Shown piece after piece: positions 11,363 through 60,456 of a stretch of 64,000 nucleotides of DNA. The position numbers were made by a program, and so were the translations under genes. Positions within the stretch are counted from its first letter, which is position 1, and each line of letters starts with the position of its first letter. Source of the stretch: Actinomycetes bacterium (GTDB taxonomy: Bacteria > Actinomycetota > Acidimicrobiia > Acidimicrobiales > Bog-793); assembly GCA_021797795.1 (NCBI GenBank), contig JAJZZB010000001.1:10775-74774 (forward strand), in the 5' to 3' direction. The notes below the pieces were generated by a model that saw only the letters and a program-made list of their open reading frames with translations, ran no database searches and was not told where the DNA came from.

Positions 11363-13210
11363 GTGAACGAACGGGTGGACGAGCTGGGCTTCCGCGAACT
11401 CGTCGCACGGCTCGAGCCGCGGCTGCGGGAGGCCCTCATCGCCCTCTACGGACCCGGACGCGGCCGCGAGGCGACCGCCGCCTGCCTCGCCTGGGCCTTC
11501 GAGCACGGCGTCGGCGAGGGCGCCGAGGTCGCAGGAACGGTGCGCAGCCTGGTCGGGGTCGCCCAGCACCAGTCCTTCCTCCTCCGGACGCCTCCCCTGT
11601 TCGATCGCAGCGCCGGACGCGTGCCCTGGCTCGAACCAGGGCTCGCCTCGGCCCTGTCGGTCCTCCCGCGAGGTGACCGCGTCGCCGTCCTGCTCGTCCA
11701 CGGCGCAGGATGGACCACCGGCGAGGTCGCGGCCCTGCTCGACCTCGCCGAGGAGGCCGTCGAGAGCCGCGTCCGCCGCTGCCTGCCGAGGCTCCGCCGC
11801 TCGCTCGGACCGAGCGCGATCGCGCCGCCGGAGGAGGCCGAGGAGGCGGCCGAACGTGCCCGGCTGCTCGCCGTCGAGGAGGCGGCCCGGGACGAGGTGC
11901 TCGGGGAGCGCTTCCGCACCATGTTCCGCGACATCGTCGGTCCGGTGAGTGCCGACGAAGCCCTGCAGCCGGTCCTCATGCCGCTCGAGGAGCCCGCGCC
12001 CGGCCCGGGTCCGCGGCCATGGCGCCTCGTGGCTCTCGGGGTCGCCGTGCTCGTCCTCCTCGTCGTCGGCATCGTCATCGGCCTCGGCGCCACGCGCTCG
12101 ACGACGGTCACCGCCTACACCACCCCGGGGCCCGAGCCGCTGCCGGGTGCGCTCTCGGACTCGGTGATCGTCGTGCCCAACCCTCCCCAGACGACCGGGC
12201 CCCATCCGGCGAAGCTGCGGGCGGTCTACGAGGTGGACGCCGAGACGAACCGCACGCTGCGCACGCCCGTCGCCCTCGAGGTGCCCGCCGCGTCCAACCC
12301 CGTGGCGACCGGTCCCTTCGTCGTCGACGTCGTCTTCCACAACCTGCGCTCCCGCCCGAACGCCGGCGAGGCGATCGCCTTCCGCTCGGCCTCCACCAAG
12401 ACGGTGGACCTCGGCCCGGCCTCCATCGCCTACCCCGGCCTGCGGTCGGGCACGGTGTGGCTGCTGCTCCACAACTCGACGCTGTCGGGCGAGCGCTCAC
12501 GGCGGTGCTCGCTGCGTGAGGTGTCGCTGACGGGAGGCCTGCTGGTCCCGCCGGCACGGGTCCCGTGCGCATGGCAGTTCCTCGACGCCGTGCAAGGAGG
12601 TGTGCTCGTCCTCGCCCCGCCCGGGGTCACAGAGGTCTGGCACCCGAGGACCGGGCTCACGGCGCCTCTCCCCGGCTTCTCGGCACCGCTCGTCGAGGCG
12701 GTCGGCTCGACCGCCGTCGCCGAGCACTGGACCCAGTTCTGCTCGGTCGAGTGCCGGCTATGGGTCGCCAACCCGGTCTCCTTGCACATCGTCGACGTCC
12801 ACCTCGGCACGCCGACCGGCGTCTCGCTCACCACCTCGGCGGCGCTCTCGCCGAACGGCCGGTTCCTCGCCGTGGCCGCGCTCCCGATCGGGGTCGCCAC
12901 CACGATCGAGAACTCGCCCATCGTCTCGGCGGGCTGCTGTAACACGGGAACGCGGCGGGTGGAAGGCCGCCTCGTCATCATCCGGGTCGCCACGGGCCAG
13001 GTTGCGATGTCCCGTCCGGCAACCTTCCTCGACCCGCCGGTGGTCGAGTGGGCACCGGACGGCAGCTACGTCTTCCTCACGCGCTCGCTGCATGCCGTCG
13101 AGGCGGTGCCGGTCTGGGCGGACGGGGCCCCGGTGCACGTCATCCGCTTTCCCACCCGGGTGACCACTCCCCCCGACCCGGGCGAGCGCTTCCTCGTCGT
13201 GAACCGGTGA
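11363..13210 (+). CDS. ECF/sigma-70-like domain fused via one TM helix to a large extracytoplasmic domain
   Basis: The N-terminal ~150 aa have sigma region 2/4 character (LSVLPRGDRVAVLLVHGAGWTTGEVAALLDLAEEAVESRVRRCLPRLRRSL). TM helix WRLVALGVAVLVLLVVGIVIGLG. The C-terminal ~370 aa carry TolB-like SPNGRFLAV and WAPDGSYVFL strands. Confidence 0.7.
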   Translation: MNERVDELGFRELVARLEPRLREALIALYGPGRGREATAACLAWAFEHGVGEGAEVAGTVRSLVGVAQHQSFLLRTPPLFDRSAGRVPWLEPGLASALSVLPRGDRVAVLLVHGAGWTTGEVAALLDLAEEAVESRVRRCLPRLRRSLGPSAIAPPEEAEEAAERARLLAVEEAARDEVLGERFRTMFRDIVGPVSADEALQPVLMPLEEPAPGPGPRPWRLVALGVAVLVLLVVGIVIGLGATRSTTVTAYTTPGPEPLPGALSDSVIVVPNPPQTTGPHPAKLRAVYEVDAETNRTLRTPVALEVPAASNPVATGPFVVDVVFHNLRSRPNAGEAIAFRSASTKTVDLGPASIAYPGLRSGTVWLLLHNSTLSGERSRRCSLREVSLTGGLLVPPARVPCAWQFLDAVQGGVLVLAPPGVTEVWHPRTGLTAPLPGFSAPLVEAVGSTAVAEHWTQFCSVECRLWVANPVSLHIVDVHLGTPTGVSLTTSAALSPNGRFLAVAALPIGVATTIENSPIVSAGCCNTGTRRVEGRLVIIRVATGQVAMSRPATFLDPPVVEWAPDGSYVFLTRSLHAVEAVPVWADGAPVHVIRFPTRVTTPPDPGERFLVVNR

Positions 13211-13860: not shown

Positions 13861-14433
13861 TCAGCGGACCCTTCTGAGGGGCGTCGGCCGCTGCGAGACC
13901 TCGTCGACGAAGCCAGCGAGGTGGGCCTCCTCTGCGGTGAGGTACCTGCCCTCGGCGCACCACCGCTCCACCTCCGAGACCGGCGTGCTGCTCGAGCGTG
14001 CGAGCACCTCGTGGAACCGTCGGACCATGTCGAGATGCGAGGCGACCGTGTGCTCCAGCTGCGAGGAAGGCGCCTCGAGGGTGACCTCGGGGTCGCAGAG
14101 GCGGAACTGGGTGTGAGGAAGGGCGAGCCGGTGCGAGCAGACTGCCGCCACAGCCACCGCCGTTCCCTCGAGACGTCCGAGGCAGACGGCGTTCACGGGA
14201 ACGCCGAGCATCTCGATCACGTCGACGAGGGCGAAGGCCGAGCTGAGCGGGCCACCGGAGCTGTCGATCTGCAGCGTGAGGGCGGAGTCACCCGTCGCGT
14301 CGAGCGTCATGAGCTCGGTGGCCACCCGGGTGGCCACCGGGTCGTCGAGCGGGCCCTTCACGACCGCGATCCGCCGGTCGAAGAGGAAGCCCTCCAGCCA
14401 GTCGCCGAACTCGGGACGTGTTGTCTCCATCAC
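13861..14433 (-). CDS. ClpP-family paralogue lacking the catalytic triad (predicted inactive)
   Basis: Aligns by eye along its whole length with ClpP (LQIDSSGGPLSSAFALVDVIEML..., RYLTAEEAHLAGFVDEV). GQAASMG is replaced by GRLEGTA, IMIHQP by FRLCDP, and ERDR by AEGR. Confidence 0.75.
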   Translation of the reverse strand: MMETTRPEFGDWLEGFLFDRRIAVVKGPLDDPVATRVATELMTLDATGDSALTLQIDSSGGPLSSAFALVDVIEMLGVPVNAVCLGRLEGTAVAVAAVCSHRLALPHTQFRLCDPEVTLEAPSSQLEHTVASHLDMVRRFHEVLARSSSTPVSEVERWCAEGRYLTAEEAHLAGFVDEVSQRPTPLRRVR

Positions 14434-14699
14434 CTGTCCTCTCTGGTCAGCCGGAGCTCGAGGGAGGCCTCGAGGGCCGCCGCGTAGCGCTCGAGCGTGG
14501 AGACGCGAATGTCGGCCTCCCCGGACTCGAGCCGGGCGACGGCGGATTGGGAGGTACCCATCCGGGCGGCCACCTCGGTCTGGGTGAGGCCGAGGGCCAT
14601 CCGCTGCTCGACGAGCCGTCCGACGAACTCGCGGCGCCGGGCGGCGATCTGCTTGAAGCCCGGGAAGACCGGCTCGTGCCGGCGCTCGTCTCTGCTCAT
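14430..14699 (-). CDS. XRE-family helix-turn-helix transcriptional regulator (ClgR/HigA-like)
   Basis: LGLTQTEVAARMGTSQSAVARLESGEADIRVSTLERYAAAL. The stop overlaps the start of the ClpP-like gene. Confidence 0.85.
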   Translation of the reverse strand: MSRDERRHEPVFPGFKQIAARRREFVGRLVEQRMALGLTQTEVAARMGTSQSAVARLESGEADIRVSTLERYAAALEASLELRLTREDR

Positions 14700-14712
14700 C
14701 GCGCGTCTATCT

Positions 14713-14725
14713 TATCTATGAGATA
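14713..14725. promoter_or_regulatory. palindrome TATCT-ATG-AGATA in the AT-rich divergent intergenic region (candidate operator)
   Basis: Read directly from the sequence. It lies between the XRE gene start (14699) and the clpP start (14756). An RBS AAGGAAGG sits at 14741-14748. Confidence 0.35.
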
Positions 14726-14755
14726 CCGAAAACGATATACAAGGAAGGCCGTGAC

Positions 14756-15445
14756 ATGGACATCCGCCATTCCATCATCCCGACGGTGCTGGACCAGACC
14801 GCCCGCGGCGACCGGTCCTACGACATCTTCTCGCTCCTGCTGCGTGAGCGGATCGTCTTCCTCGGCCAGGAGGTGGACGAGCAGATCGCCAACCTCCTCG
14901 TGGCCGAGATCCTCTACCTCGAGGCCGAGGACCCGGAGAAGGACATCCACCTCTACATCAACTCCCCCGGCGGCCTCGGCTACGCCGGCATGGCGATCTA
15001 CGACGTGATGCAGCACGTGAGATGCGAGGTCTCGACCATCTGCGTCGGCATGGGGATGTCGGCCGCTGCCATGATCCTGGCCGGCGGGGCAACCGGGAAG
15101 CGCTACGCCCTCCCGAACGCGAAGATCATGATCCACGAGGGGTCGGCCGGAACGCGGGGCGCTCCGCGCGACATGGAGATCCACCTGCGCGAGGTGCTGG
15201 CGACGACCCGCAGGATGGTCGAGATCCTCGCCCACCACACGGGCCGGGCGATCGACGAGGTGGCACGCGACATCGAGCGGGACCGCTACATGACGGCCGA
15301 GGAGGCCGTCGCCTACGGGCTCGTCGACGAGATCATCGTCCCCCGCAGGGGTGTCTCGGCTCCGAGGGACCGGGCAGCCCTCTCGGAGGGGGCGCTGTCG
15401 GGCGAGCCGGCCGACGTCTCCCTCGCCGAGGCCGTCGCCTCCTGA
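14756..15445 (+). CDS. clpP: ATP-dependent Clp protease proteolytic subunit
   Basis: SYDIFSLLLRERIVFLG, YINSPGG, GMGMSAAAMILAGG (Ser), IMIHEG (His), ERDRYMTAEEAVAYGLVDEI (Asp). There is a ~35-aa C-terminal extension. Confidence 0.9.
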   Translation: MDIRHSIIPTVLDQTARGDRSYDIFSLLLRERIVFLGQEVDEQIANLLVAEILYLEAEDPEKDIHLYINSPGGLGYAGMAIYDVMQHVRCEVSTICVGMGMSAAAMILAGGATGKRYALPNAKIMIHEGSAGTRGAPRDMEIHLREVLATTRRMVEILAHHTGRAIDEVARDIERDRYMTAEEAVAYGLVDEIIVPRRGVSAPRDRAALSEGALSGEPADVSLAEAVAS

Positions 15446-23000: not shown

Positions 23001-25760
23001 GTGAGCCTTCGCTCCACGACCTCGCATCCTGCCGAGCTCGTGCTCGACGCCGTGCCCGACGCCCCGACCGCCGCCCGGCACTACGTGCGGGCGGCGCTCG
23101 CCGGCCTGTCCCAGGACACCCTCGAGTCGGCGCAGCTCATCGTCACCGAGCTGGTGGCGAACGCCTACCTCCACGGCGCCCCGCCGATCGTCGTGCGCCT
23201 CACCCGCTCGGACGGGCGGGCCCGTCTCGAGGTCGCCGACACCGGACACCTTCTCCCAGTCGAGACGCGACCGTCGCCGGAGTCGACGACAGGGCGCGGC
23301 CTCTCCCTCGTCGCTCAGCTGTCGTCGGCCTGGGGAGTCGATCTCGCTGCCGACGGAGGAAAGGTGGTGTGGGTCGAGCTCGGTGAGGCCTCCGACGCCG
23401 GGCCGCTCCCGAACGGGCCCCGGATGGACGTGCCGTCCATGCTGAACGCCCTCGCCCCGGACGCGTCGGTACCGCGCTACGTCGTCCGTCTCGGTTCGGT
23501 GCCCACCGAGCTCCTTGTCGAGGCCAAAGCCCACATGGACAACGTGGTGCGAGAGCTGCTCCTCATGCAGGCGGCCGAGTCGATCACCGGCGTCGAGCTC
23601 CCGGCTCCGATGGCAGAGCTGGCGGCGGTCGCCACCAGAGAGTTCGTCGAGGCACGCGCCGAGATCAAGCGCCAGGCACTGGCCGCCGCCGCGCGGGGCG
23701 AGGCCGTCACCGAGCTCGAGCTCCATCTCCCGCTCTCCGCCGCAGGTGCCGGTGAGCGGTACCTCGCCGCCCTCGACCAGGCCGACCGGTACGCGAGAGC
23801 GGCGCGACTGCTCACGCTGGCGCCGCCGCACTCCCACCGCCTGTTTCGTGAGTGGTACGTGCGTGCTCTCGTCGAGCAGCTGCGGGCGGCGGCCGCGGGA
23901 CAGGAGGTGCCGGTCCCGCGGCCCTTCCCGCAGCTCCTCGCCGAGGAGGCCGACCGCCTGTCGGTGTTCCAGGTCGCCTGGCACCGGCTCCAGCTGCTGC
24001 AGAAGGTGACGGCCGAGCTGACCGGCACGCGCTCGGTGCAGGAGATGGCCGAGGTCGTCACACGCGCGTCCGGCCAGCACCCGGGCGTCGTCTCGTCACG
24101 CGTCTACGTGCTCACCCGGGGGCGCATCCTCCGTTCGCTCGCCTTCAACGGCGAACCCTTCGAGGAGCGCCACTACGAGGAGTTCCTCCTCGGTGAGAAC
24201 CTCCCGGCGGCGGTGGTGGCCCGGACCGGCGTCCCCGAGTCGCTCCGGTCGCTCGCCGAGATCTACGAGCGGTTCCCGGCCCTCGACGGTTACTACCCCG
24301 ACGAGCGCAGCCTGCACGTGGTCCCCCTCGTCGTCGAAGGTCGTGTCATCGGCGTCTTCTCGCTCACCTTCGTCGGGGGCGAGATCAACGACGACGCCCA
24401 GGTCGCATTCGTCCACGCCGTCGGGAACGTCCTCTCCCACGCGCTCGGCCGAGCCCGCGCCGCCGAGCGGGCCGAGACCGAGCGGCAGCGGCGTCTGATG
24501 CTGCTCACGGCGCAGCTCGACGTGCTGACGGGAATCGTCGGCGGGCAGCCGCTCGTGGACGCCCTGGGCGCCCTGCTCGCCGCCGTCGAGGGGGTCTCCG
24601 CCGATGGCGTGCTTGCCTCGATTCTCCTCCTCTCCGAGGACGGCCTGCACCTGCAGCACGGGTCCGCCCCGAGCCTTCCCCGCTTCTACAACGCTGCGAT
24701 CGACGGTGTCGCCATCGGCCCGGCCGTCGGTTCCTGCGGGACCGCCGCCTACCGCCGCCGACGGGTGATCGTCGAGGACATCGCGACCGACGCCCTCTGG
24801 GCCGACTACCGGGAGCTGGCGGCATCCGCAGGGCTCCGGGCATGCTGGTCGACCCCGATCTTCGGTTCCCGTGGCCAGCTGCTCGGGACCTTCGCCATGT
24901 ACTACCGCCAGCCGCAGCGCCCCGCACCGGCAGATCTCGCTCTCGTCGACGTGCTGGTCCGTACTGTCGGGACCGCGATCGAGCGCTCGCGAGCCGACCA
25001 GGCACGCGAGCAGGCGATCGCCGCCGAGCGGGAGGCCGCCCTCGTCCTCCAAGAGAGCCTGGTCCCGGCGGTCCCTGCGTCCCTCGGTCCGGTCGCCCTC
25101 GAGGCCCGCTACCGCGCGGGCGACCCCGGTGTCCAGGTGGGCGGCGACTGGTTCGACGCGGTCGACGGCCCGAACGGGACGGTGCTCGTCGTCGGCGACG
25201 TGCAGGGCCACGACCTGAACGCCGCCGCGGTGATGGGCCAGCTCCGCACCGTCGCCCGGGCGGCAGCCGGCGAAGGCCAGTCGCCTGGTGCCATCCTCGC
25301 CAGCATCAACCGCTACCTCGAGCGTCTCGACTCCGACCTCCTCGCGACGGCCGTGGTCGTCCGGCTGGAGGACGACCAGGGTACGGCCACGATGGCGAGC
25401 GCCGGCCACCTGCCGCCGGTGCTCGTTCGAAGGGGGGTGTCGGGTGCCTGGCAGGCAGAGGAGGTCGTCGCCAAGACCGGCCTTCCTCTCTCGATCGGCC
25501 ACTCCTGGCCCGAGAGCGCGACCGTCCTCCCGGCCGACAGCGTGCTCCTCCTCTACACAGACGGCCTCGTCGAGACACGCTTCTGGGCTCTCGACGAGGG
25601 GCTCGGCATGCTGTGCTCCGTCCTCGAAGCCCTGCCGCCCGACGCTGGGCTCACCGAAGTCCTCGACGCCGCCCTCGACCTGCTGCCCACCGGGTCCCGC
25701 GGCGACGATGTGGCGGTCCTCGCCGCCTCGAGGTCGGGGGTCCCCGCCGTCGCCCCGTGA
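23001..25760 (+). CDS. multidomain regulator: RsbW-like HATPase_c + GAF domains + PP2C/SpoIIE phosphatase
   Basis: N-terminus TELVANAYLHG...GRGLSLVAQLSSAWGV...GKVVWVEL. The middle region is GAF-like. The C-terminus carries PP2C motifs GGDWFD, VVGDVQGHD, YTDGLVE. Confidence 0.8.
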   Translation: MSLRSTTSHPAELVLDAVPDAPTAARHYVRAALAGLSQDTLESAQLIVTELVANAYLHGAPPIVVRLTRSDGRARLEVADTGHLLPVETRPSPESTTGRGLSLVAQLSSAWGVDLAADGGKVVWVELGEASDAGPLPNGPRMDVPSMLNALAPDASVPRYVVRLGSVPTELLVEAKAHMDNVVRELLLMQAAESITGVELPAPMAELAAVATREFVEARAEIKRQALAAAARGEAVTELELHLPLSAAGAGERYLAALDQADRYARAARLLTLAPPHSHRLFREWYVRALVEQLRAAAAGQEVPVPRPFPQLLAEEADRLSVFQVAWHRLQLLQKVTAELTGTRSVQEMAEVVTRASGQHPGVVSSRVYVLTRGRILRSLAFNGEPFEERHYEEFLLGENLPAAVVARTGVPESLRSLAEIYERFPALDGYYPDERSLHVVPLVVEGRVIGVFSLTFVGGEINDDAQVAFVHAVGNVLSHALGRARAAERAETERQRRLMLLTAQLDVLTGIVGGQPLVDALGALLAAVEGVSADGVLASILLLSEDGLHLQHGSAPSLPRFYNAAIDGVAIGPAVGSCGTAAYRRRRVIVEDIATDALWADYRELAASAGLRACWSTPIFGSRGQLLGTFAMYYRQPQRPAPADLALVDVLVRTVGTAIERSRADQAREQAIAAEREAALVLQESLVPAVPASLGPVALEARYRAGDPGVQVGGDWFDAVDGPNGTVLVVGDVQGHDLNAAAVMGQLRTVARAAAGEGQSPGAILASINRYLERLDSDLLATAVVVRLEDDQGTATMASAGHLPPVLVRRGVSGAWQAEEVVAKTGLPLSIGHSWPESATVLPADSVLLLYTDGLVETRFWALDEGLGMLCSVLEALPPDAGLTEVLDAALDLLPTGSRGDDVAVLAASRSGVPAVAP

Positions 25761-42241: not shown

Positions 42242-43426
42242 TCAACTGCCGAGGCACGTGCCGGTCCCCGAACGCGAGCCCACCGGGCGCCGCTCGGCCT
42301 CGCGCACCCGCTTCAGCACTCCGGGAGAGGCGAGCGCGTAGCCGATGTGGTCGTTGCTCGACTGGCGGGAGAAGACGATGCCGATGACGACGCCGTCCGC
42401 CTCGACGAGCGGACCTCCGGAGTTGCCCGGGCGGACGAGCGACTCGATCTCGTACATCTCCCGGGTGGTGAGGACGTTCCCGTAGATGTCGTAGCCGGTG
42501 GCGTCGAGCAGGCCGCGGACGCCCGCCGGCTGGGCGTTCAGGAAGGGTCGGCCGCCGGGGAAGCCGAGGACGGCCGCCTCGGTGCCCCGGCCGACGTAGC
42601 TCGGGTCGAGCCGGACCGCCCGGTCGGTGAGGTTCGCCACCCTCAGCACCGAGAGGTCGTAGCGGGGGTCGAACAGGACCGGGTAGGCGTTGTGGTAGCC
42701 GGCCGCGTCGGTCACCACGACGTGGTTCGACCCGGCGACGACATGGGCGTTCGTGACGACCAGTCCCGGGGCGACGACGATGCCCGAGCCCTTCTCGACG
42801 AGATCGCCGTGGTCGCACCCGAACGCCGTCACCTGAACCGTCGAGTTCCCGATCCGGGCGACCGCCTGGCGTACGAGGGCGGAGCCGGGCAGCCGGACGG
42901 GGGCGATCGTCCCCGAGTTGAGGACGATCGGGAAGATGTTGTCCCGGTTCAGCAGCTTCTCGATGGAGACGAGCTCGGAGGGGATCGGCGGCATCAGGTT
43001 CGAGAGGTTCTCGAGGATGGCCGAGTTCGCAGTCTCGTTGGAGATCGACGCCACGGGTGAGCTCACCATCACCGAGGCGAGGATCCACACGAACATGAGG
43101 GTGCCGACCATCGCGATGGCCGCACCCGCGCCGGCGTCCAGCTTGGCCATGCCCCGACCCTGGAACCTGCCCCACACCTTGGCGCCGAGCTGCCGTCCGG
43201 CGCCGCCGAGCAGGCCGCAGGGAAGGATGAGCAGCAGCAGCGAGACGAAGGTCCTCGCGAAGGTCGCCTGGATGTGGGGGCTCACCACCGAGACGACGGC
43301 GACGCCGACCACGAGGCCGAGGAGGGCGCCGGCGAAGGAGAGGAGCTGGACCGCCGCCCCGACCCGCACCCCGTGCAGAGCCGAGAGGAGGACGAGGACG
43401 ACGATGAGCCAGTCGAGCAGGTTCAT
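42242..43426 (-). CDS. MarP-like membrane serine protease (CvpA domain + trypsin-like S1C domain)
   Basis: Four N-terminal TM helices (MNLLDWLIVVLVLLSALHG...). Protease motifs TNAHVV and PGNSGGPLV. Confidence 0.8.
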   Translation of the reverse strand: MNLLDWLIVVLVLLSALHGVRVGAAVQLLSFAGALLGLVVGVAVVSVVSPHIQATFARTFVSLLLLILPCGLLGGAGRQLGAKVWGRFQGRGMAKLDAGAGAAIAMVGTLMFVWILASVMVSSPVASISNETANSAILENLSNLMPPIPSELVSIEKLLNRDNIFPIVLNSGTIAPVRLPGSALVRQAVARIGNSTVQVTAFGCDHGDLVEKGSGIVVAPGLVVTNAHVVAGSNHVVVTDAAGYHNAYPVLFDPRYDLSVLRVANLTDRAVRLDPSYVGRGTEAAVLGFPGGRPFLNAQPAGVRGLLDATGYDIYGNVLTTREMYEIESLVRPGNSGGPLVEADGVVIGIVFSRQSSNDHIGYALASPGVLKRVREAERRPVGSRSGTGTCLGS

Positions 43427-54694: not shown

Positions 54695-56152
54695 TCAGCG
54701 AGGGTCGCGGCCGGCCTCGGCGTACCGGCAGAGTCGCTCCCGGTCGGCGTCGTTCAGGAGCTCCACGACGTCGAAGACGGCGCCCGACGGTCCCCTGAGG
54801 GCGTCGAGGGCGAGGCGCCCGGCGCTGTTGCGGGAGGGGACGTCGGTCGTGAGCAGGACGAGGGCGGCGTCGGGATCGCTCGCGTGGAGCACCGCCGCCC
54901 GGCCGAGGGCACGCCAGAGCAGCTCGGCGCGCCGCAGTCCCCCCCTCGTGGCGGTGAAGGCGCCGGAGAGGTCGAAGGCCCACCTGCCGCCGGTGCGGTC
55001 GCGGGCGGTGAAGTGCAGCTCGAGACCGGCTCCGGCCACCTTCACGTCCCGGCGCACGTCGAGGAAGCCGACCTCGCCGAGAAGGGTCTCGGCGAGCTCC
55101 CTTGCGAGGCGGCCTTCGATCAGGCCGCTGGCGAAGCCTTCCCGCCCGTCGTGGTCCGGGCGCCCGGCGGGCAGCCGGACCGCCGGCCGGGCGCCCCCCT
55201 CCCGGTCGAGCCGCCGTCGCTCGTCCGCCACCCGCTGGCGGGCCTGGTCGCAGTAGGTCGCGTCGGTGTCGAAGCCGACGAAGTGGCGGCCGCGGCCGAG
55301 GGCAGCGACGGCCGTCGTACCGGAGCCCATGAAGGGGTCGAGGACGATGTCGCCCTCGTAGGTGTAGAGGTCGATCAACCGGGCCGGCAGGCCGACCGGG
55401 AACGGCGCCGGGTGGTTCACCCGCCTGGCGCTCTCGGGCGGGAGCTCCCACAGGTCCGTGGTCGCCTCGAGGAACTCGTCCCGGCCGATGGTCGCCGTCG
55501 ACGGCAGGCCGCGCCGGCGGCGCTCCTCCGGCCTGAGCGCCCGGTCGAAGCGGCCCTTGCTCGCGATGACGATGCGCTCGGTCACGTCCCGCAGCACCGG
55601 GTTGCTCGGATGCTGGAAGGTCCCCCAGGCGCACGAGCCGCCGGCCGCCCTGCCCTTCCACCAGACCACCTCCCCCCGCAGCAGCAGGCCGAGCTCCTGC
55701 AGGATCGAGGTCACGTCGCCGGCGAGCGACCGGTACGGGCGCCGGCCGAGGTTGGCGACGTTGACGGCGATGCGGCCCCCCGGCTCGAGCACCCGCTTGC
55801 ACTCCGAGAGGACGTCGCGCAGCAGGGCGAGGTACTCGAAGTAGCTCCCCGGCACCCCGTTGTGCCCGAGGCTCTCCTCGTACTCCTTGCCGGCGAAGTA
55901 CGGCGGAGAGGTGACGACGAGGGCAACCGAGCTCGCCTCGAGGGCGCTCATCGAGCGGGCGTCCCCGTGGTAGATGACGTCGAAGGCGCTCGGGAGGGCA
56001 ACGTCGTCGTCGGGGCTCAGCTCGGGCGAGACGAAGCGGTCGTAGAAGGCCGAGGCGTCGTGGCTCTCGCGCCGGGACGACCCGAAGCGGGCCGTCGAGG
56101 TCGCCCGGCGGGCGCGGGGCCGGGACGGCTGCGAGGCGGTGTCGAGGCTCAC
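54695..56152 (-). CDS. site-specific DNA methyltransferase, beta-class (motif IV SPPY before motif I), with extra C-terminal domain
   Basis: VVTSPPYFAGKEYE (motif IV) precedes VLDPFMGSGTTAVAA (motif I). NHPAPFP is also present. About 150 aa beyond the MTase core are unassigned. Confidence 0.85.
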   Translation of the reverse strand: MSLDTASQPSRPRARRATSTARFGSSRRESHDASAFYDRFVSPELSPDDDVALPSAFDVIYHGDARSMSALEASSVALVVTSPPYFAGKEYEESLGHNGVPGSYFEYLALLRDVLSECKRVLEPGGRIAVNVANLGRRPYRSLAGDVTSILQELGLLLRGEVVWWKGRAAGGSCAWGTFQHPSNPVLRDVTERIVIASKGRFDRALRPEERRRRGLPSTATIGRDEFLEATTDLWELPPESARRVNHPAPFPVGLPARLIDLYTYEGDIVLDPFMGSGTTAVAALGRGRHFVGFDTDATYCDQARQRVADERRRLDREGGARPAVRLPAGRPDHDGREGFASGLIEGRLARELAETLLGEVGFLDVRRDVKVAGAGLELHFTARDRTGGRWAFDLSGAFTATRGGLRRAELLWRALGRAAVLHASDPDAALVLLTTDVPSRNSAGRLALDALRGPSGAVFDVVELLNDADRERLCRYAEAGRDPR

Positions 56153-56295
56153 GACGGGGAGTCCCCGGGCGGGAGCTTGGCGAGGAACTCCTCGACGGCA
56201 CGGGTGACGAGGAAGTTCACCGACACCTCGCGGGCCCGGGCAGCCGCGTGAAGCGCCTCACGCAGCGACACCGGAAGGCGGATGGCCGTCGCCAT
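56149..56295 (-). CDS. small ribbon-helix-helix (Arc/MetJ/CopG-like) protein
   Basis: MATAIRLPVSLREALHAAARAREVSVNFLVTRAVEEFL fits a beta-strand/helix/helix pattern. The stop overlaps the MTase GTG start (GTGA). An alternative ATG lies at 56328. Confidence 0.55.
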   Translation of the reverse strand: MATAIRLPVSLREALHAAARAREVSVNFLVTRAVEEFLAKLPPGDSPS

Positions 56296-56345
56296 CCTCG
56301 GCTCGTCTGAACACCTCGGTCTGCCCATGACGAGACCATAACGAC

Positions 56346-56396
56346 GGGCTGTCGCGAGGTGGTGGATTATGCGCGCGTTAACGCCCGCGACAGCCC
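56346..56396. promoter_or_regulatory. 11-bp inverted repeat GGGCTGTCGCG...CGCGACAGCCC enclosing the palindrome GCGTTAACGC (56375-56384)
   Basis: Read directly from the sequence. It lies in the divergent region between the RHH-MTase operon and the peptide ABC operon. Confidence 0.5.
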
Positions 56397-56563
56397 GGCT
56401 CGATGGGCGGGCAGGCAAGCACCACTGTCGAAATTCGCAGGTCAGACCGGCGACCGCCGAAAACATGGCATGGGCATAGGCAAACGGCGATCTGCCGACT
56501 ATCTTACGACCAGGCGTAGTCCAGATGACGACTGCGTGACAACCGACCCGAAAGGGGGCCCGT

Positions 56564-58468
56564 ATGCGGGCATGGATCAAGGGCGCACGCGCCGGGGCAG
56601 CGGTCGCCGCAGGCGCGCTGGTTCTCGCCGCGTGTGGGAGCGGGACCGGCAGCGGCGGCGGAGGGACCGGCGGCGGCAACACGAGCGCCTTCAACGCGCC
56701 GGGCGGCTACGGGAAGCTCCCGACGCAGTCCGGCACGCCGAAGAAGGGCGGCATCGTCACGATCGCCGAGTCGCCCGGTGCAGGCCCGAACTACATCTTC
56801 CCGATCACGCCGGCCGCCAACGAGTCGGTGTACACGATCGACCAGTTCCAGTACTACATGTGGCGCCCGCTCTGGTGGGCTCCGCAGGGCGCGACCCCGA
56901 CCATCAACTTCCCCCAGTCCATAGCGAGCGCGCCGGCCTTCTCGAACAACAACAAGACCATCACAATCCACATGAAGTCAGGCTGGAAGTGGTCCGACGG
57001 GGCGCCGGTGACCTCGAAGGACGTCGCCTTCGACCTGTGGCTCACCAAGGCCGCCGTCAAGATCAGCCCGGCGAACGACGGGAACTACACCCCCGGCCTC
57101 TACCCGGACTTCATCACGTCGATCCAGACACCGAACTCCACGACGGTCGTGCTCAAGGTCAACAAGACCTACAACCAGAACTTCATGTTCTACAACCAGC
57201 TGGGTCAGATCGTCCCGCTGCCGGCGCAGGCATGGTCGAAGACGAGCGCGAGCGGCGCGACCATCCCCTTCGCCAACCTGGCGAACGCGGAGAAGATCTA
57301 CAAGTTCCTGAACGCCCAGTCGGGCAAGCTGGCGACGTACGCCACGAACCCGCTCTGGCAGGTGGTGGACGGCCCGTTCAAGCTGAAGACCTTCGACCCG
57401 TCGACCGACGCCAACACCCTCGTGGCGAACCCCGCCTACGGCGGGCCGGTGAAGCCCAAGATCGCCGGGATCGACAACGTCGCCTTCACCTCGACGAGCG
57501 CCGAGTTCAACCAGCTCCTGAGCGGCAACCTCGACGTCGGCTTCGTCGACTTCAGCAACCTGCCACAGGTCAACACGCTGAAGGCGAAGGGCTACAACGT
57601 CTGGGGCTACCCGGACTTCGGGTTCTCCTACATCGGCTACAACTTCAAGGACCCGACGGGCGACTTCAACAACATCATCTCGCAGCTCTACATCCGTCAG
57701 GCGCTGGCGCACCTGCAGGACGAGCCGGCGGTGATCCAGTCCAAGGGTGTGTTCGACGGAGCTGCCGGCGCGGCGTACGGCCCGGTCCCGGCCGTCCCGA
57801 AGAGCCCGTTCGCCCCGGCGAACGCTCTGACGAACCCGTACCCGTTCAGCATCTCGGCAGCCAGCAACCTGCTGACGAGCCACGGCTGGAAGGTCGTCCC
57901 TGGCGGCACCACGACCTGCCAGAAGCCCGGGACGGCTTCGAACGAGTGCGGCGCCGGCATCCCGAAGGGGACGGCGCTCACCTGGAACCTCATCTACGGC
58001 AACTCGCCGGCCGTCATCGGTGCGCAGGATGAGATCTGGGCATCCAACGCCAAGAAGGTCGGGATCACGATCAACCTGAGCTCGAAGACCTTCAACTACA
58101 TCATCTCGAACCTGTCGGACGTCTCGAACCCGTCGAACGACAAGATCTGGGCGATGCAGGACTTCGGCGGATTCACCAACAGCCTGTACCCGACGACGAA
58201 CGAGCTGTTCAACACGAAGGGCTCGTTCAACTTCGGCGGCTTCTCGAACCCGCAGATCGACAAGGCGATCCAGAACTCGATCAGCTCGCTCGACAACACC
58301 GCGGTCCAAAAGGAGATCGGGCTCGTCACCGCACAGCAGCCGGGTCTGTTCCAGCCGAATGCCGACCTCGTGTTCGCCTTCAAGAACACCCTCTCCGGCC
58401 CACCGGCGAGCTTCGCCGACGCCTCCCAGTACCAGTTCTCACCGGAGTACTGGTACTTCAAGAAGTAA
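56564..58468 (+). CDS. ABC transporter substrate-binding lipoprotein, peptide/nickel (family 5) type
   Basis: Signal peptide plus lipobox (ALVLAACGSG) and a Gly-rich linker. The size and sequence are SBP_bac_5-like. An RBS AAAGGGGG lies upstream. Confidence 0.85.
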   Translation: MRAWIKGARAGAAVAAGALVLAACGSGTGSGGGGTGGGNTSAFNAPGGYGKLPTQSGTPKKGGIVTIAESPGAGPNYIFPITPAANESVYTIDQFQYYMWRPLWWAPQGATPTINFPQSIASAPAFSNNNKTITIHMKSGWKWSDGAPVTSKDVAFDLWLTKAAVKISPANDGNYTPGLYPDFITSIQTPNSTTVVLKVNKTYNQNFMFYNQLGQIVPLPAQAWSKTSASGATIPFANLANAEKIYKFLNAQSGKLATYATNPLWQVVDGPFKLKTFDPSTDANTLVANPAYGGPVKPKIAGIDNVAFTSTSAEFNQLLSGNLDVGFVDFSNLPQVNTLKAKGYNVWGYPDFGFSYIGYNFKDPTGDFNNIISQLYIRQALAHLQDEPAVIQSKGVFDGAAGAAYGPVPAVPKSPFAPANALTNPYPFSISAASNLLTSHGWKVVPGGTTTCQKPGTASNECGAGIPKGTALTWNLIYGNSPAVIGAQDEIWASNAKKVGITINLSSKTFNYIISNLSDVSNPSNDKIWAMQDFGGFTNSLYPTTNELFNTKGSFNFGGFSNPQIDKAIQNSISSLDNTAVQKEIGLVTAQQPGLFQPNADLVFAFKNTLSGPPASFADASQYQFSPEYWYFKK

Positions 58469-58568
58469 CGAAGTAATCCGCACGACTCGGGAAGGATGCG
58501 AAACCGGGCCCACCGGCCCGGCCTAGCATCCTTCCCGAGCGGGTTCTCAGGGGAGGTGCGCCAGGAGC

Positions 58569-59516
58569 GTGACTGCTTATCTCATCCGTCGCCTGGTCAC
58601 GTCGCTGATCGTCATCCTCGGCATCGCGCTCGTGACCTTTCTCATGACCCACATCATCGCCCCCTCTCCCGGGCGGGCGATCCTCGGTGACCGTGCCAGC
58701 CGGGCCGCCGTCAACGCCTTCGACAACGCCCACGGCTACGACCGCCCCGTCTGGGTCCAGTTCGGCAGCTACCTGTGGCAGCTCGTCCACGGGAACCTCG
58801 GCTACTCATACAAGCTCAACCAGACGGTCGACTCGCTCATCGCCGAGAACGCCCCCCACAGCATGTGGCTGAGCGGCATCTCGGTCTTTCTGAGCATCGT
58901 GATCGCCATCCCGCTCGGGATCTTCCAGGCGGTGAAGCGCAACTCGGTCGCCGACCAGGCCATCACGGCCGCCGCCTTCACCGCCTACTCGATGCCCCAG
59001 AACTTCCTCGGCATCCTCCTCATCGGCTTCCTCGCCATCCAGTGGCACCTCTTCCCGGCCGAGGCAAGCCAGAGCGAGCGGATCATCCCGTACATCTTCG
59101 CCTTCCATTCGAACTTCCTGCCGATCGCGACGCTCACCATCACGGCGGTCGCCGGCTACTCCCGCTACATGCGCTCGGCCGGCCTCGACGCCCTTGCCCA
59201 GGACTACATCCGCCTCGCGCGAGCGAAAGGCCTCACCGAGCCGACGGTCCTCCGGCGTCACCTGCTCCGCAACGCCATCCTGCCCATGGTCACCCTGATC
59301 GGGCTGTCGATCCCCCTGCTGCTCGCCGGCAACCTCGTCGTCGAGTACCTGTACAACTCCCACGGCCTCGGCCTTCTGTTCATCAACGAACTCGGCAACG
59401 AGGACTTCCCGACCGTCATCGCCCTGACGCTGCTCGGAGGCATCGCGACCGTCGTCGGCAACTTCGTCGCCGACGTCGCCCTGACCGTGGCGGACCCGCG
59501 GATCCGGATCAACTGA
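58569..59516 (+). CDS. ABC transporter permease (DppB/OppB-like)
   Basis: N-terminus YLIRRLVTSLIVILGIALVTF and the EAA-loop region YIRLARAKGL. Confidence 0.85.
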   Translation: MTAYLIRRLVTSLIVILGIALVTFLMTHIIAPSPGRAILGDRASRAAVNAFDNAHGYDRPVWVQFGSYLWQLVHGNLGYSYKLNQTVDSLIAENAPHSMWLSGISVFLSIVIAIPLGIFQAVKRNSVADQAITAAAFTAYSMPQNFLGILLIGFLAIQWHLFPAEASQSERIIPYIFAFHSNFLPIATLTITAVAGYSRYMRSAGLDALAQDYIRLARAKGLTEPTVLRRHLLRNAILPMVTLIGLSIPLLLAGNLVVEYLYNSHGLGLLFINELGNEDFPTVIALTLLGGIATVVGNFVADVALTVADPRIRIN

Positions 59517-59526
59517 GGAGGCCGCG

Positions 59527-60456
59527 ATGACCGTCAGCATCGGTGAGATCTACGAGGAGGTCCAGCCCTCCGACGTCGCCCCGGAGGGAGGTCAGATACA
59601 CGGGCCGAGGGCCGGCTGGAAGCTCGCGCTCTCCTCGTTCGTCGAGAACCGGCTCGCCGTCGCCGGCGCGGGGATCGTGGTGTTCTTCATCCTCTTCTCC
59701 TTCGTCGGGCCGCTCATCTACCACACCAACCAGAACTCGACGAACCCGATCAACGCCTTCCTCCCCCCGAGCGGTGCCCATCTGCTCGGCACGGACAGCA
59801 ACGGCTTCGACGAGCTCGGCCGCATGATGAAGGGTGGACAGGCAGCCCTCGAGATCGGCTTTTTCGCCTCGCTCATCGCGACGGTCATCGGCACCCTCGT
59901 CGGTGCCGTGGCAGGCCTGCTCGGGGGCGTCGTCGACGCCTTCCTGATGCGCATCGTCGACGTCATGCTGTCGATCCCGCTGCTGTTCGTCATCCTCATC
60001 GTCGGCGACCGCTACAACGGCGCCACGGTCTTCAGCCTCTCGATCATCATCGGCATCTTCTCCTGGCTCGTCTCGGCCCGCCTCGTGAGAGGGGAGGTCC
60101 TCTCGCTCCGGGTCCGGGACTTCGTGTTCGCCTCCCGCACGATGGGGGCCAGCCGCCGCCACCTCATCTACAAGCACCTCATCCCGAACGCGCTCGGCGT
60201 CGTGATCGTCAACATCACCTTCCAGGTCGCCGACACGATCAACCTCCTCGCCATCCTCGGCTTCCTCGGCTACGGCCTCAACTACCCCCAGGTGAGCTGG
60301 GGGGACATGCTCTCGAACGCCCTCAACTACCTCTCTGACGGGTACTGGTGGGTGGTCTACCCGGTCGGGGTGTGCCTCGTCCTCGTCGTGATGGCCTTCA
60401 ACTTCATCGGCGACGCGCTGCGCGACACTGTCGACGTCCGCCTGCGGCGGCGCTGA
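59527..60456 (+). CDS. ABC transporter permease (DppC/OppC-like)
   Basis: HLLGTDSNGFDELGRMMKG and the EAA-loop region FVFASRTMGAS. Confidence 0.85.
   Translation: MTVSIGEIYEEVQPSDVAPEGGQIHGPRAGWKLALSSFVENRLAVAGAGIVVFFILFSFVGPLIYHTNQNSTNPINAFLPPSGAHLLGTDSNGFDELGRMMKGGQAALEIGFFASLIATVIGTLVGAVAGLLGGVVDAFLMRIVDVMLSIPLLFVILIVGDRYNGATVFSLSIIIGIFSWLVSARLVRGEVLSLRVRDFVFASRTMGASRRHLIYKHLIPNALGVVIVNITFQVADTINLLAILGFLGYGLNYPQVSWGDMLSNALNYLSDGYWWVVYPVGVCLVLVVMAFNFIGDALRDTVDVRLRRR

What the first reader, a model, noticed from the sequence alone, without database searches (positions are those of the whole stretch)
13861..15445. XRE regulator coupled to a triad-less ClpP paralogue, divergent from an intact clpP
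The 190-aa minus-strand protein aligns by eye with ClpP over its full length. All three catalytic positions are substituted. The Ser in GQAASMG becomes Gly (GRLEGTA). The His in IMIHQP becomes Cys (FRLCDP). The Asp in ERDR becomes Gly (AEGR). Its start overlaps the stop of an XRE HTH gene whose sequence looks like ClgR/PopR regulators or HigA-type antitoxins. Across a 56-bp AT-rich spacer lies an intact clpP with a ~35-aa C-terminal extension. It is not accompanied by tig or clpX. Inactive ClpR subunits are established in cyanobacteria and plastids. Actinobacterial ClpP1/ClpP2 are both catalytic, so a dead paralogue co-expressed with a regulator is unusual. It might form mixed rings with the neighbouring ClpP, or act as an adaptor or decoy. 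It could also be the partner in a TA-like pair with the XRE protein.
Basis: partly seen in the sequence, partly recalled or inferred. Interest (0 to 1): 0.55.

Follow-up and report, generated by a model that had tools for sequence, protein, structure and literature searches.

The report
Dead ClpP paralogue in regulated cassette
The window holds a three-gene module conserved across Acidimicrobiales (a normal ClpP protease gene, a dedicated DNA-binding regulator and a ClpP copy that has lost all three catalytic residues), which appears to be an undescribed non-catalytic ClpP partner outside cyanobacteria and plastids.

Summary
The gene at 13861-14430(-) encodes a genuine ClpP-fold protein (Pfam 81.5 bits; AF2 pLDDT 89.6; TM 0.86 to solved ClpPs). 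It has Gly, Cys and Gly at the Ser/His/Asp positions. Its start overlaps the stop of an 89-aa XRE gene. A canonical, intact clpP lies divergently across a 56-bp spacer (46% GC).

This is not a one-off. The dead paralogue defines a large clade: at least 171 species-level genomes, nearly all Acidimicrobiales MAGs, and 232 clusters at 50% identity. No listed homologue or representative has an intact triad. All 74 loci with enough upstream DNA carry the same trio. An 18-bp palindrome (TATCTCA-N4-TGAGATA) lies between the divergent genes in 77 of 78 distinct spacers.

The dead clade also lacks the N-terminal gating segment, the unfoldase-docking pocket and the oligomerisation sensor, yet it is under purifying selection. 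Most members, though not the window's, end in an IGF-like tail.

Best reading: a ClpR-like non-catalytic partner of the neighbouring ClpP, co-regulated by a dedicated XRE repressor that is not ClgR/PopR-like. A toxin-antitoxin reading is not supported. Physical association between the proteins is inferred, not shown.

The parts
13861..14430 (-). Triad-less ClpP paralogue ('dead ClpP'). It is 189 aa from the ATG at 14430; an alternative GTG start at 14433 gives 190 aa.
   Evidence: ORF. Pfam CLP_protease 81.5 bits. Identical 189-aa database protein P0001. AF2 pLDDT 89.6. Foldseek TM 0.86 to ClpPs. omega 0.2-0.5.
14164..14166 (-). Codon for Gly89, at the position of the nucleophile Ser97 of E. 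coli ClpP. It sits inside the family motif G-R-[VLA]-E-G.
   Evidence: Alignments. This column is Gly in 95% of the family. None of the 150 representatives has Ser here.
14095..14097 (-). Codon for Cys112, at the position of catalytic His122.
   Evidence: The column is variable across the family (T/C/S/R and others).
13948..13950 (-). Codon for Gly161, at the position of catalytic Asp171.
   Evidence: Gly in 94% of the family.
14430..14699 (-). XRE-family HTH regulator, 89 aa. Its TGA stop (14432-14430) overlaps the start of the dead clpP.
   Evidence: HTH_3 51 bits and HTH_31 43 bits. A stop/start overlap of 1 or 4 nt is seen in 71 of 86 loci. Three sampled XRE homologues sit in the same cassette.
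14655..14687 (-). Codons for the N-terminal motif ERRHEPVFPGF of the XRE protein (residues 5-15), outside the HTH domain.
   Evidence: Nearly invariant in 78 distinct family members.
14700..14755 (.). Divergent 56-bp promoter/operator spacer, 46% GC in a 71.6% GC window. It holds the clpP Shine-Dalgarno sequence AAGGAAGG.
14708..14725 (.). 18-bp palindromic operator TATCTTA-TCTA-TGAGATA (family consensus TATCTCA-N4-TGAGATA). It ends 8 bp from the XRE start codon.
   Evidence: The spacer is always 4 bp. 77 of 78 distinct intergenic regions have 3 or fewer mismatches, whereas control pieces mostly have 5-8. Window sequence.
14733..14739 (.). Additional operator-like half-site CGATATA on the clpP side.
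   Evidence: A comparable third half-site is visible in related spacers, for example TATCTCG-N5 upstream of the palindrome in L011, L012 and L021. Read by eye, not tested statistically.
14756..15445 (+). Canonical, catalytically intact ClpP (229 aa), the partner gene.
   Evidence: Pfam 243 bits. NCBIfam PRK00277 276.9 bits, above its cut-off of 249. 235-242 bits to the best-matching solved ClpPs, E. coli ClpP (1tyf) among them. The triad, gating N-terminus and sensor are 97-100% conserved across the family.
15344..15442 (+). C-terminal extension of the partner ClpP (residues 197-229; RRGVSA...LAEAVAS).
   Evidence: An extension starting G[VL][SA]A is present in nearly all partner ClpPs. Its length and end vary by clade.

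Best explanation
This is a conserved chromosomal three-gene Clp module of Acidimicrobiales.

(1) The intact gene encodes a canonical ClpP that provides catalysis, the gated pore and the surface that docks unfoldases.

(2) The 189-aa paralogue is a non-catalytic ClpP-fold subunit. It keeps the head domain and handle helix but has lost the Ser-His-Asp triad, the N-terminal gating segment, its own docking pocket and the Asp/Arg oligomerisation sensor. I infer that it binds the neighbouring ClpP and modulates it. The likeliest form is a mixed core with fewer active sites, in which only ClpP subunits can engage ClpX or ClpC. That is the ClpR working principle.

(3) The XRE protein, as a dimer, binds the 18-bp palindrome in the 56-bp spacer. 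The palindrome overlaps -10-like elements (GAGATAA/TAAGAT) for both divergent transcription units, so the protein probably represses clpP and its own xre-clpP* operon together. Translational coupling fixes the ratio of regulator to dead subunit.

Shown here: fold, residue losses, purifying selection, strict synteny, coupling and operator conservation. Inferred: physical association, its stoichiometry, and repression rather than activation.
For: - Family membership and fold.
- Triad loss in the window protein and in every listed homologue and representative.
- Selection: omega is 0.2-0.5 for the dead gene against 0.06-0.15 for the partner. Family-specific conserved motifs GRVEG, LMTLDATGD and LGVPV exist. 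So this is a functional protein, not a decaying copy.
- Linkage: the trio is present in 74 of 74 loci with enough upstream DNA, while no other neighbour is conserved. Identities of the three genes co-vary (Spearman 0.72 and 0.70).
- Division of labour: the partner keeps the N-terminal loop (P4, V6, R12, G13, R15, D18 at 99-100%), pocket residues L23, Y62 and L114 at 100%, and the sensor R170 at 99%. The dead clade has none of these.
- Regulation: the palindrome with a fixed 4-bp spacer occurs in 77 of 78 spacers, 8 bp from the XRE start in the window. The stop/start overlap is conserved.
- Precedent: paralogous ClpPs form hetero-oligomeric cores with divided roles in Streptomyces and M. tuberculosis (PMC9765437; PMC4416901). 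Non-catalytic ClpR subunits sit in chloroplast cores (PMC6508832).
Against:
- The dead gene is co-translated with the regulator, not with clpP. Known core partners are co-operonic (clpP1P2; clpP3-clpR, the latter from memory).
- Loss of the sensor and of the Gly-rich handle strand could prevent canonical ring-ring stacking.
- The dead subunit contributes neither catalysis nor docking, so what a mixed core would gain is unclear.
- The IGF-like tail of most relatives hints at a different, apical mode of binding.
- Repression versus activation is not established. The generic promoter scan found no sigma-70-type match in the spacer itself; its single hit begins at 14751 and runs into clpP.
Confidence: 0.5

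Rival explanations
1. Apical cap or unfoldase mimic. The dead ClpP forms its own heptamer and sits on the docking face of the canonical ClpP. Seven C-terminal IGF-like tails plug the seven hydrophobic pockets. It thereby competes with ClpX/ClpC as an inhibitor, or opens the gate as ADEP compounds do.
For: - 56 of 79 species-level members end in L-P-G-x-P-[IL]-G-F-R-P-R, against about 1 expected from shuffles. The motif is never elsewhere in the protein and never in the partner.
- Tripeptide motifs on flexible loops are how Clp-ATPases dock into ClpP pockets (PMC8745299 abstract).
- The dead subunit's own pocket is degenerate while the partner's is conserved.
- The equatorial features (sensor, Gly-rich strand) are lost in the dead clade.
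- Partner pocket positions 60 and 112 differ between clades with and without the tail.
Against: - The window's own subclade lacks the motif (tail ...PLRRVR) yet keeps the whole cassette.
- The pocket/tail co-variation is confounded by phylogeny.
- No structural test was possible.
Confidence: 0.17
2. Regulatory partner of the XRE protein. The dead ClpP does not join the protease. It binds the regulator, for example its invariant N-terminal ERRHxPVFPGF motif in the remodelled, Gly-lined former active-site groove. It acts as co-repressor, anti-repressor or sensor that tunes clpP transcription.
For: - Translational coupling of xre and the dead gene in 71 of 86 loci.
- An invariant non-HTH motif in the XRE protein.
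- Ser97 and Asp171 are replaced specifically by Gly in 94-95% of members, flanked by conserved Arg and Glu. This looks selected for a new binding function.
- XRE repressors paired with a downstream peptidase-fold gene are a known layout (ImmR/ImmA, DdrO/IrrE; from memory).
Against: - It does not explain why an intact clpP is always adjacent and co-diverges, unless clpP is simply the regulated target.
- It does not explain the IGF-like tail.
- There is no interaction evidence.
- It is compatible with, rather than exclusive of, the best explanation.
Confidence: 0.2
3. Toxin-antitoxin or defence-type pair. The XRE protein is a HigA-like antitoxin and the dead ClpP is a toxin or effector.
For: - The best solved relatives of the XRE protein are Mtb HigA3/HigA2 (E 1e-6 and 2e-5).
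- Weak NCBIfam hits to antitoxin families, all below their cut-offs.
- Overlapping two-gene operon with a palindromic operator.
Against: - No PADLOC model hits either ClpP.
- The gene order and the obligatory third gene are atypical.
- The context is ordinary chromosome (dnaX-ybaB-recR, tadA, ABC-F) and the module is inherited as a unit across an order.
- No ClpP-fold toxin turned up in the papers searched.
Confidence: 0.05
4. Decaying duplicate: a pseudogenised clpP copy with no function.
For: All catalytic residues and several functional surfaces are lost. The gene evolves faster than its partner.
Against: - Intact ORFs of conserved length in at least 171 species.
- omega 0.2-0.5.
- 24 invariant residues among 17 members that share 40-66% identity with the window protein.
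- A confident AF2 fold.
- Conserved translational coupling.
Confidence: 0.02

Closest known systems
ClpR, the non-catalytic ClpP paralogue of cyanobacteria, plastids and apicoplasts
   Same: It has a ClpP fold without the Ser-His-Asp triad, is kept under selection, and is encoded next to a catalytic ClpP with which it presumably works (PMC6508832 and PMC7966870).
   Different: - The lineage is different (Actinomycetota, class Acidimicrobiia).
- It is not co-operonic with the catalytic gene. It is divergent from it and coupled to a transcription factor.
- It additionally lacks the N-terminal gating segment and docking pocket.
- Most relatives carry an IGF-like tail.
- Assembly into the core has not been shown.
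Actinobacterial ClpP1P2 heterotetradecamers (M. tuberculosis, Streptomyces)
   Same: Two adjacent ClpP paralogues have divided roles. In Streptomyces, ClpP1 gives catalysis and ClpP2 docks the ATPases (PMC9765437). ATPase binding is asymmetric in Mtb (PMC4416901).
   Different: - In those systems both subunits keep the triad and are co-transcribed.
- Here one subunit has both functions and the other has neither.
- The partner scores higher against E. coli-type ClpP structures (about 235-242 bits) than against the listed ClpP2-named entry (6x60, about 201 bits).
Conditionally inactive ClpP paralogues (Listeria ClpP1, P. aeruginosa ClpP2, Chlamydia ClpP1)
   Same: A paralogue that is inactive or weak on its own works through hetero-complexes with a canonical ClpP (PMC12451819 and PMC13056064).
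   Different: As far as I recall, those paralogues retain catalytic residues (Listeria ClpP1 has Asn for Asp). They are not linked to a dedicated regulator gene.
ClgR / PopR, XRE-type regulators of actinobacterial clp genes
   Same: A small XRE-family HTH protein is dedicated to clp gene control. The precedent includes feedback through Clp-dependent degradation of the regulator (PMC9765437).
   Different: - The operator is different: TATCTCA-N4-TGAGATA against WNNWMGCYNNNRGCGWWS.
- No ClgR structure is among the PDB hits.
- The C-terminus is ...TREDR, not Ala-Ala (the Ala-Ala degron is from memory).
- The operator overlaps the promoters, which suggests a repressor rather than an activator.
- It carries a unique ERRHxPVFPGF N-terminal motif.
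IGF/LGF/VGF docking loops of ClpX/ClpC, and ADEP-type pocket binders
   Same: The tail consensus P-[IL]-G-F-R-P of most family members resembles the tripeptide that docks into ClpP hydrophobic pockets (PMC8745299; tail logo).
   Different: - Here the motif sits on a ClpP-fold protein, at its C-terminus. I found no description of such a case.
- It is absent from the window's own protein.
XRE repressor plus adjacent peptidase pairs (ImmR/ImmA, DdrO/IrrE; from memory)
   Same: The gene order is XRE followed by a peptidase-fold gene with overlapping or coupled ORFs.
   Different: Those peptidases are active metalloproteases that cleave the repressor. Here the peptidase fold is a serine-protease scaffold with no catalytic residues.

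Membership tests
ClpP family (Pfam PF00574 / MEROPS S14 fold) | Sequence and fold membership over the full domain | tested here: met
   Pfam 81.5 bits against a cut-off of 20.2, covering profile positions 12-180 of 182. 104 PDB ClpP sequences match at E<=1e-3. AF2 model with pLDDT 89.6. Foldseek top 50 hits are all ClpP, TM 0.83-0.87.
ClpP family (functional ClpP peptidase) | Ser-His-Asp catalytic triad | tested here: not met
   Gly89, Cys112 and Gly161 occupy the three columns. The family-wide pattern is G-x-G.
ClpP family (functional ClpP peptidase) | N-terminal axial loop that gates the pore and contacts the unfoldase | tested here: not met
   The first ~10 residues of mature ClpP are absent in about 73-91% of the dead clade, depending on the position, and the rest is not conserved. 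The partner has P4, V6, R12, G13, R15 and D18 at 99-100%.
ClpP family (functional ClpP peptidase) | Hydrophobic pocket for IGF/LGF loops (E. coli Y60, Y62, F82, I90, M92, F112, L114, L189; residue list from memory) | tested here: not met
   In the dead clade Y62 becomes Q/R, L189 becomes A/C/S, and Y60 becomes E/T/Q. The partner keeps L23, Y62 and L114 at 100%.
ClpP family (functional ClpP peptidase) | Assembly into heptameric rings and tetradecamers | not testable with these tools
   Only monomer prediction is available. The handle helix is present (H122-147), but the Asp/Arg sensor and the Gly-rich strand are lost.
ClpR (non-catalytic Clp core subunit) | ClpP paralogue lacking the triad but conserved under selection | tested here: met
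ClpR (non-catalytic Clp core subunit) | Physically incorporated in the proteolytic core with catalytic ClpP subunits | not testable with these tools
   Only genomic linkage (74 of 74 loci) and co-divergence are available.
ClpR (non-catalytic Clp core subunit) | Belongs to the cyanobacterial/plastid ClpR lineage and is co-transcribed with clpP3 (operon layout from memory) | tested here: not met
   The hosts are Acidimicrobiales. The gene is divergent from clpP and coupled to xre. No formal phylogeny with ClpR sequences was made.
ClgR/PopR clp regulators | XRE-type HTH protein encoded near, or controlling, clp genes | tested here: met
   HTH_3 and HTH_31 hits. The gene is always between clpP and the dead clpP.
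ClgR/PopR clp regulators | Recognises the ClgR box WNNWMGCYNNNRGCGWWS | tested here: not met
   The conserved spacer motif is TATCTCA-N4-TGAGATA. The ClgR consensus comes from PMC2905415. Binding itself was not tested.
ClgR/PopR clp regulators | Close sequence relationship to ClgR | tested here: inconclusive
   No ClgR entry appears among the 12 PDB matches at E<=0.01, and no ClgR-specific model is among the NCBIfam hits. No direct pairwise comparison with a ClgR sequence was made.
Type II toxin-antitoxin (HigA-like antitoxin plus toxin) | Antitoxin-type HTH protein with a cognate toxin of a known toxin family | tested here: not met
   The HigA, HipB and MqsA models all score far below their cut-offs. 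The downstream gene is a ClpP-fold protein with no PADLOC hit.
Type II toxin-antitoxin (HigA-like antitoxin plus toxin) | Mobile, patchy, self-contained two-gene distribution | tested here: not met
   The pair is always accompanied by clpP, the three genes diverge together, and the context is housekeeping chromosome.

The most novel reading that the evidence does not exclude
The dead ClpP family may be an endogenous protein regulator of ClpP that works from the outside. It would form a heptamer of ClpP-fold subunits whose seven C-terminal IGF-like tails insert into the seven unfoldase-docking pockets of the canonical ClpP, matching its symmetry. It would thereby exclude ClpX/ClpC, or open the pore as ADEP antibiotics do. 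The XRE repressor's invariant PVFPGF motif would tie transcription of the module to the occupancy of this complex. The window's tail-less subclade would be a derived variant that keeps only ring or regulator contacts.
Probability: 0.18. Interest if true: 0.85.

Novelty: new variant of a known kind. Interest (0 to 1): 0.62.

Why it matters
In the literature I could search, non-catalytic ClpP subunits are described only for cyanobacteria, plastids and apicoplasts. This clade would be an independent invention of a ClpP pseudo-protease in Actinomycetota, and it is currently annotated everywhere as an ordinary 'ATP-dependent Clp protease proteolytic subunit'.

It comes with a compact, testable regulatory circuit: one operator, one dedicated XRE protein and two divergent promoters. 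Most members also carry a docking-type IGF motif on a ClpP scaffold.

If the dead subunit caps or remodels ClpP, it would be a natural protein counterpart of ADEP-like ClpP modulators. That is relevant to how Clp proteases are restrained or redirected, and to ClpP as a drug target. It would also correct genome-based counts of active Clp proteases in abundant soil and peat Acidimicrobiales.

Tried and rejected
- **Exact look-up of the 190-aa GTG-start protein** found nothing. The database copy starts at the ATG (189 aa).
- **Generic promoter/terminator scan.** It gave one sigma-70-like match that begins in the last 5 bp of the spacer and runs into clpP, and no terminators. This was uninformative for a high-GC actinobacterium.
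- **The repeat finder missed the operator** because the window copy has one mismatch. It was recovered by comparing 78 orthologous spacers.
- **PADLOC.** No defence-system model matched either ClpP; only generic HTH hits appeared for the XRE protein.
- **'Another crotonase-fold family'** (SppA, enoyl-CoA hydratase) was rejected. Only marginal enoyl-CoA hydratase hits appear (20 bits against a cut-off of 272), and all the listed best structural matches (the top 50) are ClpP.
- **'A proper alignment restores the triad'** was rejected by three independent alignments and by family-wide columns.
- **An alternative Cys/His catalytic pair** was considered. Cys112 is not conserved (T/C/S/R), so it is unlikely.
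- **Tail/pocket co-variation.** It is present but confounded by phylogeny, so I do not count it as evidence.
- **dN/dS.** dS is 0.7-1.2 for most pairs, near saturation, so the omega values are approximate.
- **Other clpP/clpX loci in the same genomes.** I could not determine whether they exist, because only +-10 kb around looked-up genes is readable. The only hint is a comparative paper reporting three clpP copies and a tig-clpP-clpX context in acidophile genomes that include cultured Acidimicrobiia (PMC10490939).
- **Literature searches** for an actinobacterial ClpR, a ClpP pseudoprotease or an Acidimicrobiia ClpP study found nothing relevant.
Full report
**Observation.** They are a 190-aa ORF at 13861-14433(-), an 89-aa ORF at 14430-14699(-) and a 229-aa ORF at 14756-15445(+). 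Pfam assigns both larger proteins to CLP_protease, at 81.5 and 243.2 bits against a cut-off of 20.2. The small one is HTH_3/HTH_31. NCBIfam places the 229-aa protein above the cut-off of the ClpP subfamily model PRK00277 (276.9 against 249). The 190-aa protein reaches at most 83 bits against ClpP models whose cut-offs are 228-361. The minus-strand junction reads GTGATG, so the XRE stop TGA overlaps either candidate start. The public copy of the protein starts at the ATG and has 189 aa. The spacer to the intact clpP is 56 bp with 46% GC, in a window of 71.6% GC.

**Catalytic residues.** Three independent alignments agree that no triad can be restored: phmmer against solved ClpPs, BLASTP against the neighbour, and MAFFT with E. 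coli ClpP plus 120 homologues. Ser97 corresponds to Gly89, or falls in a 2-residue gap. His122 corresponds to Cys112 and Asp171 to Gly161. The neighbour keeps all three. An AlphaFold2 model built on 17 family members is confident (mean pLDDT 89.6, pTM 0.84). Its best structural matches are all ClpP, with TM about 0.86 and rmsd 1.3-1.8 Å over ~175 residues.

**It is a family, not an accident.**
- The word-indexed search found 155 relatives, and those that carry a source name are called Acidimicrobiales, Acidimicrobiia or Actinomycetota MAGs.
- A pattern scan of one genome per species found 171 species-level hits. Nearly all are Acidimicrobiales or Acidimicrobiaceae MAGs from soil, peat and similar samples.
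- An exhaustive profile search found 232 clusters at 50% identity with E<=1e-30.
- None of the 120 listed homologues or the 150 representatives has an intact triad, and none of the 150 representatives has Ser at the nucleophile column. The usual pattern is Gly-x-Gly.
- The family has motifs of its own (LMTLDATGD, LGVPV, G-R-V-E-G, RFRLxDP, GRYL) and 24 invariant positions among 17 members that share only 40-66% identity with the window protein.
- Against close relatives, dN/dS is 0.20-0.49 for the dead gene, 0.10-0.22 for xre and 0.06-0.15 for the partner clpP (dS is near saturation). The gene is constrained, but less so than its partner.

**The cassette.** tblastn of the window's three proteins on all 88 fetched loci shows the same arrangement wherever the DNA reaches far enough. 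The order is clpP on one strand, then xre and the dead clpP on the other. That holds for 74 of 74 distinct loci with at least 1.3 kb upstream. No other gene family is conserved around it, and the flanks differ completely between distant members. The partner ClpP is 69-94% identical to the window's in nearly all loci. The XRE protein is 56-85% identical and the dead ClpP 40-67%, with one close relative at 89%. The identities co-vary (Spearman 0.72 and 0.70), so the trio is inherited as a unit. The XRE stop overlaps the dead-gene start by 1 or 4 nt in 71 of 86 loci. Three XRE homologues picked only for their long contigs all lie in the same cassette, each with a triad-less downstream ClpP. In the window the module sits in ordinary chromosomal context (dnaX, tadA-like deaminase, ABC-F, glyoxalase). 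The 64 kb holds no clpX, clpC, tig or further clpP.

**What each ClpP has kept.**
- *Partner.* It is a canonical ClpP, scoring 235-242 bits to the best-matching solved ClpPs, E. coli ClpP (1tyf) among them. It has the full N-terminal gating segment, the triad, the Asp/Glu-Arg sensor next to the catalytic Asp, and pocket residues L23, Y62 and L114 at 100%. It also has clade-specific features: His at position 82, the handle strand HEGSAGTRGAPRD, and a C-terminal extension beginning G[VL][SA]A.
- *Dead clade.* It lacks the first ~10 residues of mature ClpP. It has a degenerate pocket (Y62 to Q/R, L189 to A/C/S). It has lost the sensor and the Gly-rich handle strand. It retains the head domain and the long handle helix.
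- So the dead subunit can supply neither catalysis nor an unfoldase docking face. This differs from actinobacterial ClpP1P2, where one subunit is mainly catalytic and the other docks the ATPases (PMC9765437).

**The regulator and its operator.** Comparison of 78 distinct spacers shows an 18-bp palindrome, TATCTCA-N4-TGAGATA. Its 4-bp spacer is invariant, and 77 of 78 spacers have 3 or fewer mismatches. Random pieces of the same loci mostly score 5-8 mismatches.
- In the window the palindrome is TATCTTATCTATGAGATA at 14708-14725, 8 bp from the xre start. A further half-site lies at 14733-14739.
- Each arm contains a -10-like hexamer on one strand (TAAGAT/GAGATAA). In many loci the xre start follows within 3-12 bp. 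This suggests a leaderless or short-leader xre mRNA whose promoter, and probably the divergent clpP promoter too, is occluded by the bound protein. That reading is inference.
- The motif is unrelated to the ClgR site WNNWMGCYNNNRGCGWWS (PMC2905415).
- The protein's solved relatives are generic XRE proteins (Mtb HigA3/HigA2, 434 repressor; 26-32 bits), and none is a ClgR.
- The family has an almost invariant N-terminal motif, ERRHxPVFPGF, outside the HTH domain. It is a candidate protein contact or degron.

**An unexpected feature of the wider family.** 56 of 79 species-level members end in a Pro/Arg-rich tail with the consensus L-P-G-(P/R)-P-[IL]-G-F-R-P-R. Shuffling gives about 1 such case. 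The tripeptide occurs nowhere else in these proteins and never in the partner. Tripeptide motifs of this type on flexible loops are what Clp-ATPases insert into the ClpP pockets (PMC8745299). The window's subclade ends earlier (...PLRRVR), and an intermediate group ends ...LPGFG or ...LPGLR. Partner pocket positions 60 and 112 differ between clades with and without the tail, but this is confounded by phylogeny.

**Interpretation.** The best-supported account is a dedicated Clp module. A canonical ClpP does the work. A ClpP-fold pseudo-protease associates with it and modulates it (the ClpR principle). An XRE autoregulator controls both transcription units from one operator.
- *Shown:* fold, losses, selection, synteny, coupling and operator conservation.
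- *Inferred:* the physical association, its geometry and the sign of regulation.
- *Points against a simple ClpR-like core subunit:* the gene is coupled to the regulator rather than to clpP, and the equatorial sensor and strand are lost.
- *Rivals this keeps alive:* (a) an apical cap or unfoldase mimic that uses the IGF-like tails, and (b) a binding partner of the XRE protein that tunes clpP transcription.
- *Poorly supported:* toxin-antitoxin or defence readings. A decaying pseudogene is effectively excluded.

**Comparison with known systems and novelty.** In the papers I could search, non-catalytic ClpP paralogues (ClpR) are described for cyanobacteria, plastids and apicoplasts (PMC6508832 and PMC7966870). 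Heteromeric ClpP cores with divided roles are known in Actinobacteria, Listeria, Pseudomonas and Chlamydia, but as far as I recall their subunits keep catalytic residues. Searches for an actinobacterial ClpR, a ClpP pseudoprotease or an Acidimicrobiia ClpP study found nothing. Sources annotate these proteins as ordinary ClpP subunits. I therefore rate it a new variant of a known kind. The principle of a dead ClpP paralogue beside an active one is known. The lineage, the obligatory link to a dedicated XRE repressor and operator, the simultaneous loss of gating and docking surfaces, and the IGF-like tail of most members are new.

**Limits.**
- No multimer prediction or experiment was possible.
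- I could not establish whether these genomes also carry clpP1P2, tig and clpX elsewhere. A comparative study reports three clpP copies and a tig-clpP-clpX context in acidophile genomes that include cultured Acidimicrobiia (PMC10490939). That suggests, but does not show, that the cassette is additional to a housekeeping locus.
- All relatives are MAG or metagenome sequences. A few are filed under other phyla (one Acidobacteriota bin and one Dormibacteria bin), which may be binning errors.

Noticed in passing
Relatives of 13861-14430(-): for example L007 6001-6675, L092 5261-5887, and proteins P0065-P0120: Most members of the dead-ClpP family end in a conserved tail, L-P-G-x-P-[IL]-G-F-R-P-R. 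It resembles the IGF/LGF loops by which ClpX and ClpC dock onto ClpP. The window's own protein lacks it.
   Followed up: partly
window 14655-14687(-): The XRE regulator carries a nearly invariant N-terminal motif, ERRHxPVFPGF, outside its HTH domain. Its function is unknown; it could be a contact site or a degron.
   Followed up: partly
P0236 (363 aa) and P0232 (470 aa), from the representatives search: These are single polypeptides with two ClpP-like domains in tandem. In P0236 both domains lack the nucleophile Ser. They may be natural fusions of non-catalytic ClpP domains.
   Followed up: no
L020 and L029 (both from MAG CAVWVO01, MFD09603.bin.4.860): The same MAG carries two copies of the cassette on different contigs. 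In L029 the dead gene is split between two reading frames, either by a frameshift or by a long-read indel error.
   Followed up: no
L004/L005 1065-4851: Two phage-integrase-family genes and an IS481-type transposase are inserted between the ABC-F gene and clpP in a relative. The cassette itself is left intact.
   Followed up: no
window 14756-15445(+), codons 123-136: The partner ClpP family has a clade-specific handle strand, HEGSAGTRGAPRD (Arg129 99%, Pro132 100%), in place of the usual HQPLGGxQGQAxD. The dead family has acidic residues at the matching positions. This might make ring-ring pairing hetero-specific.
   Followed up: no
window 23001-25760(+): A 919-aa protein combines an anti-sigma-type HATPase_c_2 domain, GAF domains and a SpoIIE/PP2C phosphatase domain. 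This is a partner-switching type signalling protein.
   Followed up: no
window 54695-60456: An N6/N4 DNA methylase gene (54695-56152, minus strand) lies next to a stretch of lower GC (0.64-0.67, against 0.72 overall) that encodes an oligopeptide-type ABC transporter. The stretch may have been acquired horizontally.
   Followed up: no
window 11363-13210(+): A 615-aa protein whose only Pfam match is a sigma-70 region 4 segment near its N-terminus. It neighbours the cassette only in the closest relatives.
   Followed up: no
window 42242-43426(-): A fusion of a CvpA (Colicin V production) membrane domain with a trypsin-like peptidase domain.
   Followed up: no
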